Shown here: positions 3,001 through 33,000 of the stretch, in pieces
How the letters are laid out: each line of letters starts with the position of its first letter
Numbering within the stretch: position 1 is the stretch's first letter
Source of the DNA: Pecten maximus
Lineage: Eukaryota
Assembly: GCF_902652985.1 (NCBI RefSeq)
Contig: NC_047017.1
Span: 18,476,001 to 18,540,000, forward strand
Direction of reading: 5' to 3'
DNA: 64,000 bases
Made by a program: the position numbers

Positions 3001-6000
3001 ACATCTGAGCAAGCATTTTAATAATTATTGAATTCGAAACTATCGTCAATCAGTTGTGTTTGGGCTCTTAAAGGTTTTATTTGCTGCATAAGTGTGTAGT
3101 TGCATCAATTTATATACATATTTGCATACATATATTGAATTATATTTTGTATCGATAACTCCAAATATCCTTTCTAGGTTAGAAATTACTCCTAAACACA
3201 GCATATATTATGGTTCCATACATATGCAAGTATACTTGTACTGAGAGTGTGTTAATGAACCCTAATGAATCACAAATACAAAGGGTTGATTATACAACAT
3301 TGTGTACAGTCCTGTGTTATTTATCTCGTTACAGCACCTTCCTGCAACATACAGGATTCCAAATGGACTCCATGTCGGGAAGCAGATCATCATACGAGGC
3401 AGGGTCACCTGGGGCACAGACGTGTGAGTAGATATAATATTTCTAGTAAAGCTTCATTGGGTACTAGAATATGTGAGTAGTTATATGTCTAGCATAAACT
3501 CAAACAGTGAAAAAAAAAAGAATAATGAAGAAGGAATAACAATGCTTGTTGATATACCAAGTGGTTCTGTTGTCACCACCCTAGTTCTCATTTTGAGAAT
3601 GCGATTTATAACCCTAATTTGTCCTCGATTAGTATGATGAAACTGAAGACGCTTTACCTACCGGAACATATGGTATGTTTCTCCTTGTACTTTTTCAGCG
3701 CTCTCTATGCAAATCTGTAGGTTTTGATAATATTTTGCCTTCGTTTTACCGATTTTAAATTTGAAATATTATGTTGATATTCTCTGGAAGTTTTCGAATC
3801 CGATATACATATACAATAAAATGGTTTGTGATTGTGGTAGCTACATTAGTCTTTTGCGCGTTTTCAGGTTCGCCATCAACTTGCAGCAGGAGGAGAACCC
3901 AACTGACGGAGAAATCGCTTTCCACTTCAATCCTCGTCCTAGCGCCAACACCTGTGTGAGGAATTCCTTTTCCGGGGACTGGATGGAAGAGGAGACCGAT
4001 CAGCCGCATTTCCCATTCGACGATGGCATGTCCTTCCTCCTCCGTATAGAGGTCGCTGAAGACGCGTTCCGGACTTACGTTCACGGCAAACCTTACATCA
4101 ACTTCGCACACAGACTCGACTACGGAAATGTGCATTACTTACATCTGACCCCTGGTGTGGAGTACTATGACATCACATTCCAGGAGAAATACGTACGTAA
4201 TAAAAAAAAAATGAACACACTTGTTAAACCCCAACCAGAGCAATAAGCAACGGGTAGCTTCTAGCGTCAAAATCTGTAATATAACATACTGTAAACGTGA
4301 TTCTTTTCGTGGGGGGGGGGGGGGGGGGGGGGTTAATATCGAGATTTCAATACGTAAACTATACGCGTGGGGGTAATTTTCGCGATTGATTCACTTTCTC
4401 TTGTAGTTCAAGATTATTGAAATTGATATTAAATTAATACGCGTGGGGAAAATTTTCGCGAACAAAAAGGGTCTGCGTAATTTGCGTAAATTTCCCCTTC
4501 GCGTAAATGTCAGCGTTTACAGTAGGCTATTTATACTCTCAATTTCATTGAAAGCGTGTTACCAATGGATTTGAAGGTCCTTATTTGTTTGGAATTTATT
4601 TTGTTACAGACACTGCCATACCGTACTGAGATTCCCGGGAGTATGGCGGTCGGTAAGGCTGTCCGTGTCCGAGGAGCTGCCCAGGACAACGATGGGTAAG
4701 TAGACAATGTCAGTAGGGCTAGCATACATTGATTATAGAATTCTACAGAAAATTATACGCATGTTTTGTGTGTGTTGATAGGGAGATATTGTCGTTTCTG
4801 GCGATGAACTATATTCAAATGACTATATGAAATTACTTCTATTTCTGTTATAAAAAGTTAATTGCTTTAGAAGTAGATAGGATTTCATCAAAGGTACAGG
4901 ATTATGTGACACCAAGTAAAATGCATAACTAAGGAGGGCGAGAAAGGTATGACATGTGCATAGTAAGTGTCTATTCCATATTCTATCAACGTTTATGGAT
5001 TATAAAAAAAGATCCAGACACACAGATATTAGCACAATTCCTTACAAATTGAAAGCTAGATACAGCACGTAGAACCAAAAATGAATTAACCTCCACCATG
5101 CAACTATTAAACTCTCGCGTACTATGATGTACAAATTATGTAAATGATTTTACTTGTGTTCCAGATTTAGCATCAACTTCGGATGTGACTGCGAGAACAA
5201 CTCGACTGCCTTCCATTTCAATCCCCGTCCCACAGAGGGCGTGGTCATCCGGAACGCTAACCTTGGGGGCTGGGGTGATGAAGAGAGAGATTACGATGCC
5301 GAGTTCCCCTTCACACCCATGAACTACTTTGACGCCATGTTCATCTGTACAGACGATCAGTATGTTGTGAGTATACTGAATGACGTCATCCACTGACGTC
5401 ACTATCATATGGTCAAGCAGCCTTGTCATACAGATTTGCCAGGCTTTTTTTCTACTTGAACAATGATGGTTGATTAAGGTTTTGATATTTATCCCATATA
5501 ACAGACTTTTACATGCTCTCAGACTTTTTACAAGTTAATAACCTGATTTTCTACAAGCTATCATCCAGACTTTCTACAAGTTATTAACCAGACTTTGTAC
5601 AGGTTGTTCTTGATGCTTAATTGATTTCATTAGGGCAAACATTGATATATCAATTATGTCGTCACTTTTTAAGGTTCATGTTAATGACAAATACTTCACA
5701 AACTTCGGTCACCGCTGTGGAGTTCCAGATTCTTCTCACTTCCATATCCAAGGCAACATGGACATCAAGGACGTGGAATACTATGAGCCCTTGGTAAGGA
5801 CTAGTAAATAAAATGATTTTTTAAAATTTATTTTCAATTTTTCTCATTTTCACCTTCATAAGGAAATGGCATATATATATATTTAAAATTGCTATTACAC
5901 TTTCATTTAAACAGGACGACGACTTTGTCAAGGAAATTCCTTGTGGCCTTGAGAAGGGAGATGTCGTCCTCTTCAGAGGTTTCATGAAGCCAGGAGGCGA

Positions 6001-30000: not shown

Positions 30001-33000
30001 CTTATCGAAAATGACATCTGTATGAAAGCCAACTTTACGTTAGTATATCTGGTGTTTACTAAATACAGCAACGTAGCTCAAAGATCGGCTCTCCGAAAAA
30101 CCTGGCTGTCAGACGTGAAAACAGCGAGGAACCAAACATACATATTTGTAACAGGAAATGGTCCAAAGAGTGACGACTTCAATATGAACACCCTAATCGA
30201 TGAAAACGATAAACACAAGGATATTCTGCTGGTGGATTTTCTAGATTCATATGCAAATTTGACATACAAAACTATCATGGCTTTCAAATGGGTGACACGT
30301 CGTTGTCCTCAGACGCAGTTTGTAATGAAAGTGGATGATGACGTCTGGGTACATAAACCTCCGTTGATGCAAACACTTCGACGGAAGAACTTCGAATTTG
30401 GTGGTTACTGTATGTTCAATTCTTTTCCTTTCAGGAACAAGGACAGCAAATACTATGCTTCATTTGAAAGTTTTCCGGAACGTCTATATCCTCCATTTTG
30501 TTCTGGGACTGCATATCTTACAAAAATCGCCATCATACAAAAAATTCTGACGATGTCGCCAAATGTCCCATTCTTCCATCTAGAAGACGTTTACATGGCT
30601 CTCTGTTTAAGAGAACTGCACATCAGTGTCACTGCAATTAGAGGATTCAACGCCCAAAAGCTTATGGCGTCCAGTTGCATGAACAAGTCCCCATCTGTTA
30701 TAACGAGCCACGGCCTCGGTCCTAATGAGTTAAAACAAATATGGAGAAGCCGATGCAACTTCGGAAGGCAGGTTGGAAAGCCAGAAGAGAACAGAATAAG
30801 ACAATTACCTAATCACAGAGAAAGGGTGCCAGGCGTAAAGAACTATGCTCGGATAAATGACAATATCAACAAAATGATAAAAAGGCAGCAAGGTCTTCTA
30901 CCAATCAACAAATTCAAAAGACATATGGGAAAACAGTGAAGCGTGTATGTGGAGTTACCCGCATTGATAACACAATTATGTCCTGCTTCTATAACTGTTG
31001 TATCAAGATGATATTGACTTTAATGTTCAAACAAAGAGTACTAGTATAACTATCTCATACTACAATGAACAATGTAAGATTTACTATTGTAAAAAACAAT
31101 TGCTCAAGTATATGTATGATTGAATATTTTTTTATTTGTATTTCGATATAAAGGTCATAAAAGTGCAACAAACATTACTTTTGACATATAAAACAACAAA
31201 TCAAATTGGGACCTACAATAAAATCACAATACTTGTACAGGTACTATGAAACAGATAAATACTAATGAAATGTTGTAACTTAATGATACACACGATAAGC
31301 AGACAAAGATACCGGGATCTATAAAGATACAGGGACGCTATAGATGCCCTTGAGATGACCTCAGACTAAAATAGTGTTGAATATCAATGTATGCTATCAA
31401 TGACGCCAATCTAATTAAAGTTAGAATTGTAGTTTCAGTTCATACCTATGTGTAAATGGAGGGGTTTAGTTTGATTAGAGCTAGCCAAAAAATCAGTATA
31501 TAGACTTCTATTTTGCATTACAGCTATTGTAGTTATTTATTTATAAACAATAAACATTCTCTGTTTATTTTACTTCTTGAAGTGGTATATATATTTAGAC
31601 TTAATATCGTGGAACATTGCACCGTTTAAGTTTAATAGCACAACCAACGCATAATTATATTATACTCTGTCCACACACTAATCTTTATCATTGGAATAAA
31701 TCAAGTTTGAAAAAATAAACTACTGTTATAATATGGCACAAAAACGCACAGAAGGTTAATATTTAGAAAGATTTCAATCAAAATAAACTAGGCATGGAGT
31801 ATACAGTTGTAAATGTATACCAGTATTCATTCATTTATTAAGAAAATATTATATAAAGGTTCTCCTCAATTCACTGTTGTGTGTTGACTTTTTGATTATG
31901 AATGGTATGGTAAATACCAAATTTGTGACAGTTAAAAAAATATGAACAAGGGAAACAACTCTCATCTGATACATGGTTGTCGACACTGAATCGTAAACAC
32001 CATTGATATGCTAATTTCTGATTTTACTAGAATTTGCTGACAGAGACATGTAAATGTAAGAGGAAAATATCAGAACACATTCACTTCAAACCAGTAGGCA
32101 CATAAATCATTCACATGCAAATGGATTTCGATTGATAATTGTAAAATTAAATAAATGTTGTTCGTATATTGTAGCATCTGATGTCTATATTGCACACACT
32201 GATATTTACAATTGTATATCATTCATAATGATAAATGCATCATTTTACTACATTGATCATGTAATTTAAAAATAAATAATTTAGAATTTGAAGATAATTT
32301 CTATTGTTCAACATATTAAACAGAGTCTTTATTAGCATAGATTTAATCAGAATCATTTGACCAAAATATCCTTTATTTGTAAATGATGAAATTAGAATGT
32401 GCAAAAATATTAAAAAGAAATGATTTTTAGACTGGCAGTGTAGTTCAAAGAGAATCCAGTTCAAGATCACAATTCCTGCAAATCATATTCACAACAGTCA
32501 TTTACAAAATCAATACCAGTATTGTAACTCCAGTTATCATGTACATGATATTATTGATGTTCGTTCAGAAAAATTAATGAAATACTATTTCACTATACAT
32601 GTATACGAGTCAATATCAAATATTTCAAATGACTGACTAGACGAAACGTTATATTTCAAATGACAAATAGGAGGAATATCTCAGCACTGAAGATTATTAT
32701 ACACATGTTCATTATCCAAGATTAACTCAATTTGTATCAAAGTGGAATTTTGAAAGAATGAAATTTTCAAATAGATCTATTCTTGTTATATAAGAAATAA
32801 ATACTATGAAAGAAAGAAAAAGATGAACTTTGTACCATAAAAAAATATTACCATTGGGAGGATTGTTCAATTCGACTTGCACGAGTATTCTATACAATTC
32901 AATCTGTACATCAACACATGAATGTTGACAAAAAATTTCTCCTTACAGAAGAAAATAGTTTACATGGAAATTCAAACTGAAAGCTAGCTTGCAAAAACAC

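What the first reader, a model, noticed from the sequence alone, without database searches (positions are those of the whole stretch)
3868..30939. Possible glycan reader-writer cluster: two tetra-CRD galectins next to a beta-1,3-galactosyltransferase
Seen: two galectin genes and a GT31 B3GALT lie consecutively on the same strand, with the transferase ATG about 3.7 kb after the galectin 2 stop. Established: galectins bind beta-galactosides; B3GALT1/5-type enzymes make type 1 Gal-beta1,3-GlcNAc chains; the oyster four-CRD galectin CvGal1 recognises blood-group-A-type glycans on hemocytes. Inference: a lectin and an enzyme making its self ligand may be linked and co-inherited as a self/non-self or immune-modulating module.
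Basis: partly seen in the sequence, partly recalled or inferred. Interest (0 to 1): 0.72.

Follow-up and report, generated by a model that had tools for sequence, protein, structure and literature searches.

The report
Scallop galectin pair beside GT31 transferase
Two neighbouring four-domain sugar-binding lectin genes of the king scallop sit just upstream of a sugar-adding enzyme gene whose reading frame is broken in this assembly, and nothing beyond their adjacency shows that they work together.

Summary
The window is Pecten maximus chromosome sequence. Two 12-exon, four-CRD galectin genes lie on the + strand: galA 3335-8772, whose first coding exon is off-window, and galB 11857-25894. A GT31 gene follows, with its ATG at 29595, 3,701 nt after the galB stop.

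Two corrections apply:
- 3868 is the start of a galA exon, not of the gene.
- The GT31 ATG/membrane anchor (frame 3) and the catalytic domain (frame 1, stop 30939) are separated by a one-base frameshift at a T4 run, 29894-29897. NCBI's model is an anchor-less 305 aa protein.

galA and galB are orthologues of bay-scallop AiGal2 and AiGal1.

The trio has consecutive GenBank accessions in Mizuhopecten yessoensis and shares a 367-kb contig in Ylistrum balloti. Synteny outside scallops, co-expression and enzyme specificity could not be tested.

The GT31 is most like human B3GALT5 and keeps its catalytic motifs. It belongs to a scallop-specific clade of unknown specificity.

Verdict: ordinary conserved synteny.

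The parts
3335..8772 (+). galA: four-CRD galectin gene (NCBI XP_033734567.1, LOC117323440, 555 aa; orthologue of bay-scallop AiGal2). Coding exons in the window: 3335-3423, 3868-4192, 4610-4695, 5165-5366, 5674-5793, 5915-6003, 6379-6580, 6835-6954, 7466-7557, 7960-8164, 8659-8769, plus stop 8770-8772. The exon for residues 1-8 lies upstream of the window.
   Evidence: tblastn of P0110 to the window. Splice junctions are all GT-AG and reproduce the junction residues. Pfam PF00337 matches on 4 of 4 core exons. 97.5% identity to AiGal2, ACS72241.
11857..25894 (+). galB: four-CRD galectin gene (NCBI XP_033734568.1 'galectin-4-like', 549 aa; orthologue of bay-scallop AiGal1). Coding exons: 11857-11880, 12416-12504, 16297-16612, 17371-17456, 17578-17770, 17907-18026, 18786-18874, 20508-20709, 21153-21275, 21715-21803, 25099-25303, 25781-25891, plus stop 25892-25894.
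   Evidence: tblastn of P0093. Junctions are all GT-AG, and the last ten show the same phase series as galA's ten. Pfam PF00337 on 4 of 4 core exons. 79.4% identity to AiGal1, ACS72240.
29595..29963 (+). GT31 gene, first reading frame: ATG, hydrophobic type-II anchor (residues about 9-29) and stem. It is a 122-codon ORF ending in a stop at 29961-29963. The orthologue-supported coding part ends near 29897.
   Evidence: Sequence read. The N-termini of P0002, P0003, P0004 and P0005 align here in frame 3. No Pfam family matched.
29894..29897 (+). Frameshift site: a T4 run where the orthologue-supported reading passes from frame 3 to frame 1. There is one base too many relative to a continuous ORF.
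   Evidence: P0003 aligns without a gap across the switch, with 12 of 21 residues identical before it (my count from the alignment). Eleven formal GT/GC-AG 'introns' of the right length class exist (22-157 nt). Each would delete orthologue-aligned residues, and 7 of the 11 are shorter than the shortest (121 nt) of the 21 neighbouring introns.
29857..30939 (+). GT31 gene, second reading frame: the catalytic domain (PF01762), stop 30937-30939. NCBI's protein model (305 aa, P0001) starts at an internal Met within this frame and lacks the anchor.
   Evidence: Pfam E 2.3e-44. Closest solved structure is human B3GALT5, 8zwp, E 1.1e-41; B3GNT2 scores 1.8e-30. The DxD motif (DDD), the xED motif and the metal-binding His all align (with passages of PMC11969544). 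P0001 is held by NCBI/UniRef/nr.
22187..24622 (.). Minisatellite, 30-bp unit x 81.3 copies, inside galB intron 10. It is the source of the long spurious ORFs in this region.
   Evidence: Tandem Repeats Finder. ORF list. Intron bounds 21804-25098.

Best explanation
The region holds three ordinary, already annotated king-scallop genes in a row.

galA and galB are tandem whole-gene duplicates of a four-CRD galectin. They have the same 12-coding-exon layout and intron phases and are 46% identical. galA is under very strong constraint and is the orthologue of AiGal2. AiGal2 is described as a soluble pattern-recognition lectin that binds and agglutinates microbes and promotes haemocyte encapsulation. 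galB evolves several times faster and is the orthologue of AiGal1. Mechanistically (inferred), each protein offers four beta-galactoside-type binding sites on one chain and so cross-links glycans on microbes or haemocytes.

The third gene is an intronless GT31 family member, most like B3GALT5. If intact it would be a Golgi type-II beta1,3-glycosyltransferase. In this assembly a one-base frameshift uncouples its membrane anchor from its catalytic domain. The allele as written cannot deliver the catalytic domain to the Golgi lumen.

The order galA-galB-GT31 is inherited synteny within the scallop family. No evidence ties the enzyme's product to the lectins' ligands.
For: - Gene identities and structures.
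- Duplication: the ten intron phases that can be compared are identical in both genes. CRD-by-CRD best matches are positional: CRD2-CRD2 56%, CRD3-CRD3 59%, CRD4-CRD4 56%.
- Rates: galA is 96.6-97.5% identical among 4 scallop genera and 72-73.5% to Mytilus and Tegillarca. galB is 78.3-81.4% among 5 scallop genera. The GT31 catalytic domain is 70.5-71.8% identical to its three closest orthologues and at most 45% to the four more distant homologues compared (P0006, P0010, P0019, P0048).
- AiGal2 function: passage of the review PMC5877582.
- GT31 family and motifs.
- Frameshift.
- NCBI's truncated 305-aa model.
- Synteny: OWF37599/37600/37601 lie on one M. yessoensis scaffold. The three Ylistrum proteins lie on one 367,359-bp contig. 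The Argopecten model XP_069118852.1 (1125 aa) is a read-through of the AiGal2-like and AiGal1-like genes.
- No sequence is shared between the two intergenic regions at E <= 0.01.
Against: - Conserved adjacency across scallop genera is also what a functional module would show, and I could not measure how conserved the flanking gene order is.
- Both the GT31 and galB are fast-evolving and, as far as the searches reached, scallop-restricted. That pattern is compatible with co-evolution.
- Type-1 chains carry the A antigen in oysters, so a beta3-galactosyltransferase is a plausible step towards a bivalve galectin ligand.
- The galectin tree did not resolve when galB arose: 3 of 12 inner branches were well supported, and there was a long-branch warning.
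Confidence: 0.75

Rival explanations
1. Reader-writer module. The GT31 enzyme makes the endogenous glycan that galA and/or galB read. Linkage keeps matched alleles together as a self/non-self or immune-tuning unit.
For: - Same strand, 3.7 kb apart.
- The order is kept in M. yessoensis, and the three genes share a contig in Y. balloti.
- galB and the GT31 are both fast-evolving and scallop-restricted in the searches made.
- Oyster haemocyte and tissue N-glycans bear type-1 A antigen, and CvGal1/CvGal2 bind A tetrasaccharides including type 1 (passages).
- Two P. maximus-only changes coincide: the GT31 frameshift and the loss of the canonical Asn in galB CRD4 (HFYPR, against HFNPR in 4 of 4 orthologues).
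Against: - Adjacency is the only link.
- The donor and acceptor of this GT31 are unknown, and it has no 1:1 vertebrate orthologue.
- CvGal1 prefers type 2 over type 1 on arrays.
- The writer is frame-broken here while both readers are intact.
- The two intergenic regions share no sequence.
- The searches made listed no paper on a lectin-glycosyltransferase cluster in animals.
- In a P. maximus oocyte microarray paper, a 'Galectin-4' probe and a 'beta-1,3-galactosyltransferase brn' probe changed in opposite directions. The probes cannot be tied to these genes (passages).
Confidence: 0.08
2. The GT31 frameshift is a real allele, either a segregating or fixed null or an early pseudogene in P. maximus. 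It is not a sequencing artefact.
For: - The site is only a T4 run.
- The assembly had Arrow polishing plus three rounds of Illumina polishing at a nominal 114x, and only homozygous non-reference edits were applied. Heterozygosity is 1.71% (passages of PMC7191990).
- NCBI kept an anchor-less 305-aa model.
- Among the 92 hits, the only protein above 71% identity is that 305-aa model, and its 90% cluster has 1 member. So no intact P. maximus version was seen in the length range searched (198-630 aa).
Against: - The catalytic ORF has no other defect over 360 codons, and its motifs are intact.
- Its tree branch (0.18) is no longer than those of its orthologues (0.11-0.24).
- Long-read assemblies do leave single-base indels.
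- No reads were available here.
Confidence: 0.55
3. The two GT31 frames are joined by a very short intron, so the gene is intact.
For: Eleven formal GT/GC...AG pairs of length 3n+1 (22-157 nt) bridge the two frames.
Against: - Every candidate removes residues that align to orthologues.
- P0003 aligns gap-free through the switch point.
- Seven of the 11 candidates are shorter than the shortest (121 nt) of the 21 introns in the adjacent genes.
- The orthologue proteins read continuously here.
Confidence: 0.03

Closest known systems
AiGal2 and AiGal1, the quadruple-CRD galectins of the bay scallop Argopecten irradians (ACS72241, ACS72240)
   Same: galA is 97.5% identical to AiGal2 and has the same length (555 aa). 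galB is 79.4% identical to AiGal1 and has the same length (549 aa). All have four tandem PF00337 CRDs.
   Different: The species differs. The P. maximus proteins have not been characterised. galB CRD4 has Tyr in place of the motif Asn. I did not find their tandem genomic arrangement with a GT31 neighbour described: the listings held no such title, but the original AiGal papers are not in the library and were not read.
CvGal1/CvGal2, four-CRD galectins of the eastern oyster
   Same: Both are four tandem CRDs on one chain. In the window, all 8 CRDs have six residues between the H-x-N-P-R Arg and the V/I-x-N. This is the short spacing the oyster papers contrast with galectin-1 (passages of PMC7053492). 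The same spacing aligns without gaps to the galectin-9 CRDs.
   Different: No CvGal sequence was available to me, so orthology was not tested. The closest Saccostrea protein is only 47% (galA) and 42% (galB) identical. The blood-group-A specificity of CvGal1/2 cannot be carried over.
Human B3GALT5 (PDB 8zwp) and the B3GALT1/2/5 branch of GT31
   Same: It is the best solved-structure match (E 1.1e-41, against 1.8e-30 for B3GNT2). The DxD, xED and His positions align (motif roles from passages of PMC11969544). An N-terminal hydrophobic anchor is encoded.
   Different: The DxD reads DDD rather than the DSD of B3GALT5; the paper lists DDD for B3GNT2 and C1GalT1. The gene falls in a scallop-only clade within a large molluscan radiation, apart from the vertebrate B3GALT1/2-like rows. 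Type-1 chain synthesis is not established. The frame is broken here.

Membership tests
Galectin (PF00337), tandem four-CRD type | Each CRD matches the galectin profile above the curated cut-off | tested here: met
   8 of 8 core exons score 52.6-97.7 bits against a cut-off of 22.1.
Galectin (PF00337), tandem four-CRD type | Four CRDs on one polypeptide | tested here: met
   NCBI proteins P0110 and P0093 map exon by exon to 3335-8769 and 11857-25891 with four CRDs each.
Galectin (PF00337), tandem four-CRD type | Canonical sugar-contact residues H-x-N-x-R, V/I-x-N and W-x-x-E-x-R (motif recalled from general knowledge) | tested here: met
   Complete in 6 of 8 CRDs. galA CRD1 has Thr for the last Arg (WMEEET). 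galB CRD4 has Tyr for the Asn (HFYPR).
Galectin (PF00337), tandem four-CRD type | Binds beta-galactosides | not testable with these tools
   Needs recombinant protein and a glycan array.
GT31 beta1,3-glycosyltransferase (PF01762), B3GALT1/2/5-like | Catalytic domain matches the profile | tested here: met
   152 bits against a cut-off of 23, profile positions 1-192 of 195.
GT31 beta1,3-glycosyltransferase (PF01762), B3GALT1/2/5-like | DxD metal/donor motif, xED motif and metal-binding His | tested here: met
   All three align to human B3GALT5. Their roles come from passages of PMC11969544.
GT31 beta1,3-glycosyltransferase (PF01762), B3GALT1/2/5-like | Type-II topology: N-terminal signal anchor in frame with the catalytic domain | tested here: not met
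   The anchor is in frame 3 and the catalytic domain in frame 1. The shift is at 29894-29897. It is met in the orthologues P0002, P0003 and P0005, but the Ylistrum model P0004 lacks the anchor.
GT31 beta1,3-glycosyltransferase (PF01762), B3GALT1/2/5-like | Transfers Gal in beta1,3 linkage to GlcNAc (type-1 chain) | not testable with these tools
   There is no 1:1 orthology to a characterised enzyme. An enzyme assay is needed.
Functional lectin/ligand-synthesis gene cluster | Adjacency conserved beyond what background synteny gives | tested here: inconclusive
   Adjacency is kept in M. yessoensis, and the genes share a contig in Y. balloti. The background was not measurable. The named non-scallop GT31 hits are paralogues, so their location on contigs of other lengths than the galectins (Pinctada, Saccostrea) is no test.
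Functional lectin/ligand-synthesis gene cluster | Co-expression, and the enzyme's product is the lectin's ligand | not testable with these tools
   No expression or glycan data for these genes were found.

The most novel reading that the evidence does not exclude
In scallops, a fast-evolving galectin (galB) and a lineage-specific GT31 transferase are kept together as a co-adapted lectin/self-glycan pair. The king scallop carries a correlated decay of both: a frameshifted writer, and a reader CRD4 that has lost its key Asn. That would be a natural loss-of-function experiment on a reader-writer linkage group.
Probability: 0.05. Interest if true: 0.65.

Novelty: new member of a known kind. Interest (0 to 1): 0.25.

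Why it matters
If the linkage were functional, it would be a rare animal example of a lectin inherited together with the enzyme that builds its ligand. That would bear on how bivalves, which lack adaptive immunity, tune self/non-self glycan recognition.

As the evidence stands, the value is practical:
- The locus gives exact gene structures for the king-scallop orthologues of AiGal2 and AiGal1.
- It shows that they are tandem duplicates with very unequal evolutionary rates.
- It flags a frame-broken GT31 model that should be checked before anyone uses the P. maximus annotation for glycosylation work.

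Tried and rejected
- **Short intron instead of a frameshift.** Eleven formal candidates exist. All delete orthologue-aligned residues, so I rejected this reading.

- **Shared promoter or repeat.** I compared the galA-galB spacer (8773-11856) with the galB-GT31 spacer (25895-29594). There were no blastn hits at E <= 0.01, and neither spacer is repeated elsewhere in the window at E <= 1e-10.

- **Dating the galA/galB duplication.** The tree had 15 rows. Only 3 of 12 inner branches were well supported. 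galB joined Saccostrea weakly (74/80), with a long-branch warning. The question stays unresolved.

- **Contig lengths as a synteny proxy outside scallops.** The Pinctada imbricata and Saccostrea echinata GT31 hits lie on contigs of different length from the galA orthologues. The GT31 tree puts those hits in another clade, so they are paralogues. I dropped this as a test.

- **Literature on a galectin-glycosyltransferase cluster or GT31 expansion in bivalves.** One search listed 1 paper, on a bacterium. One search listed 3 papers, none on bivalve GT31 by title or abstract. Nothing usable came of it.

- **Scallop glycome.** The listing held nothing on scallops.

- **P. maximus oocyte microarray paper.** The probes cannot be assigned to these genes.

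- **Atlas look-up of a downstream exon.** It gave only a weak WD40-type lead.

- **Background collinearity.** I considered testing it with the one representative-library job. I did not run it: the downstream genes are widely conserved, and their hits would not carry accessions.

- **Not used or closed.** I did not use genome contigs, because it holds bacteria and archaea only. Supplementary files were not consulted; the probe lists of PMC5333834 might have helped.

- **No joined model.** I searched exon by exon. I made, searched or folded no joined model of my own. Full-length comparisons used database proteins as the tools returned them. Nothing in the window looked human.

Full report
**Origin and method**

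The window has no N. Its galectin and GT31 translations are identical or nearly identical to proteins held for a 53,454,838-bp Pecten maximus contig. It is king-scallop chromosome sequence and nothing in it looked human. I made no joined model of my own. Full-length comparisons used proteins returned by the tools.

**The observation**

A motif scan found nine H-x-x-P-R hits, all on the + strand. Eight lie in open exons and one spans a stop codon. All eight exons match the galectin profile PF00337, with E values from 4.6e-28 to 4.1e-14.

tblastn of the NCBI proteins P0110 (XP_033734567.1, 555 aa) and P0093 (XP_033734568.1, 549 aa), followed by a junction check, gave two genes:
- galA spans 3335-8772. 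The exon for residues 1-8 lies off the window's left edge.
- galB spans 11857-25894.

Both genes have GT-AG introns. The ten intron phases that can be compared are identical (2,0,2,0,0,2,0,0,2,0), and both have four CRDs.

ORF 29857-30939 matches PF01762 at E 2.3e-44. The orthologue-supported ATG is at 29595, 3,701 nt after the galB stop. Its start coordinate, 3868, is the first base of galA's third coding exon, not the start of the gene.

The ATG at 29595 opens a 122-codon frame encoding a hydrophobic anchor and stem, and that frame stops at 29961-29963. The catalytic domain is in a different frame.

All four orthologues tested align their N-terminus in frame 3 and the remainder in frame 1. 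The two alignments meet at 29893-29900, where there is a T4 run at 29894-29897. The unnamed scallop-clade protein P0003 aligns through this point without a gap.

Eleven formal GT/GC-AG pairs could bridge the frames. Each would delete orthologue-aligned residues. Seven of the 11 are shorter than the shortest (121 nt) of the 21 introns next door.

NCBI's own model is a 305-aa protein that starts at an internal Met and lacks the anchor (P0001). Among the 92 hits, no other protein exceeds 71% identity. No intact P. maximus version was therefore seen in the 198-630 aa range searched.

The catalytic part looks healthy:
- It has no stop in 360 codons.
- The DxD (DDD), xED and His positions align to human B3GALT5. 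Their roles come from passages of PMC11969544.
- Its tree branch is no longer than those of its orthologues.

The assembly was PacBio CLR with Arrow polishing and three rounds of Illumina polishing, from an animal with 1.71% heterozygosity (passages of PMC7191990). I rate a real frameshift allele slightly more likely than an artefact (0.55). Only reads can decide.

**What the genes are**

The 90% cluster of galA holds bay-scallop 'galectin 2' (ACS72241, 555 aa). 'Galectin 1' (ACS72240, 549 aa) matches galB.

| Comparison | Identity |
|---|---|
| galA among four scallop genera | 96.6-97.5% |
| galA to Mytilus and Tegillarca | 72-73.5% |
| galB among five scallop genera | 78.3-81.4% |
| galA to galB | 46% |

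The best CRD matches between the two genes are positional: 2-2, 3-3 and 4-4 at 56-59%. Together with the shared exon plan, this indicates a whole-gene tandem duplication followed by very unequal divergence. The tree could not date the duplication.

A review passage reports that AiGal-2 binds and agglutinates several microbes and promotes haemocyte encapsulation (PMC5877582). I did not see the original papers.

Six of the eight CRDs keep the full canonical contact set (motif recalled from general knowledge). The two exceptions are:
- galA CRD1 has Thr for the final Arg. This is shared by all four scallop orthologues, while Mytilus has Lys and Tegillarca and Pinctada have Arg.
- galB CRD4 has Tyr for the Asn. 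The codon is TAT, and 4 of 4 orthologues have Asn.

**The transferase family**

Its best solved relative is human B3GALT5 (E 1.1e-41). B3GNT2 scores 1.8e-30 and B3GALT6 scores 1.8e-7.

In a 92-row tree, the gene forms a five-row clade with the Mizuhopecten and Ylistrum proteins and two unnamed proteins (support 100). Three more unnamed rows are the next relatives (support 98). The named Pinctada, Saccostrea, Mya, Dreissena and gastropod hits lie in other clades, and the vertebrate B3GALT1/2-like rows lie outside the molluscan radiation.

Hence 'B3GALT1/5-like' is a family label. It is not evidence for type-1 chain synthesis.

**Synteny**

- In M. yessoensis, the galA orthologue, the galB orthologue and the GT31 orthologue are OWF37599.1, OWF37600.1 and OWF37601.1 on one 1,006,300-bp scaffold. 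The galB and GT31 orthologues are also XP_021379982.1 and XP_021379983.1. That consecutive submitter accessions follow gene order is my knowledge, not a test.
- In Y. balloti, the three proteins share a 367,359-bp contig.
- In Argopecten, the model XP_069118852.1 (1125 aa) reads through from the AiGal2-like gene into the AiGal1-like gene.

The trio is thus conserved in at least two scallop genera, and the galectin pair in four.

Outside scallops I had no valid test. No eukaryotic genome collection was available, and the non-scallop GT31 hits are paralogues. I also could not measure how collinear the rest of the block is. The conservation therefore cannot be called more than background.

Passages read in three papers bear on this:
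- CvGal1's best array ligands are blood-group-A type 2, then type 1. CvGal2 binds A tetrasaccharides of types 1, 2 and 3/4 (PMC7053492).
- C. gigas and O. edulis N-glycans carry type-1 LacNAc and type-1 A/H epitopes (PMC10301044).
- A review says type-1 A glycans may be the preferred ligand in the biological context (PMC8699351).

A beta3-galactosyltransferase could therefore lie on the route to a bivalve galectin ligand. All of this comes from oysters, however. The searches found no scallop glycan data, and nothing ties this particular GT31 to that step.

**Verdict**

This is an ordinary, already annotated locus. It holds a tandem pair of four-CRD immune-type galectins and a neighbouring, frame-broken GT31 gene, in an order inherited within Pectinidae. 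The functional coupling is untested speculation (about 0.05-0.08).

Noticed in passing
window 22187-24622: A minisatellite with a 30-bp unit, 81.3 copies and 92% matches lies inside galB intron 10. It produces stop-free spurious ORFs of up to 373 aa on both strands.
   Followed up: partly
window 18179-18641: A 25-bp tandem repeat of 18.6 copies lies in galB intron 6.
   Followed up: no
window 25151-25165: galB CRD4 reads HFYPR (CAC TTC TAT CCC CGA). The Ylistrum, Mizuhopecten, Mimachlamys and Argopecten orthologues all read HFNPR. This is a P. maximus-only loss of the canonical Asn, if it is not an assembly or allele quirk.
   Followed up: partly
window about 3990-4010 (galA CRD1): The W-x-x-E-x-R motif ends in Thr (WMEEET). 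This holds in P. maximus, Mizuhopecten and Ylistrum, and Argopecten has WMDEET. Mytilus has Lys, and Tegillarca and Pinctada keep Arg.
   Followed up: partly
window 38656-41309 and 41314-43941: A tandem duplication of about 2.6 kb, with copies 93-97% identical. It carries identical 101-aa ORFs at 40565-40870 and 43198-43503 that have no Pfam match.
   Followed up: partly
window 58622-58936 (-): An exon matches the Ribosomal_L11 RNA-binding domain (PF00298, E 4.2e-14). It is probably a mitochondrial ribosomal protein L11 gene.
   Followed up: no
window 49740-50162 (-): An ORF with an N-terminal Met and a WD40/beta-propeller-like feature profile. The Atlas named-family scores reach only 0.90 (EIPR1, MIOS, WD40), and there is no Pfam hit, so this is a lead only.
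   Followed up: no
P0107 (Argopecten irradians XP_069118852.1): This 1125-aa model fuses the AiGal2-like and AiGal1-like genes through a 24-residue linker. In the last CRD it reads HIRKDHVGPLRN where AiGal1 has HFNPRISEGCTVRN. That suggests a local frame problem in that model or assembly.
   Followed up: no
P0004 (Ylistrum balloti XP_060077897.1) and P0100 (Mytilus californianus): The Ylistrum GT31 model (398 aa) starts after the anchor segment that the other orthologues have. The Mytilus californianus galA-like isoform X1 is 695 aa and appears to carry a fifth CRD.
   Followed up: no
window 1262-1507: A 27/54-bp tandem repeat with 71-72% matches lies upstream of galA exon 2.
   Followed up: no
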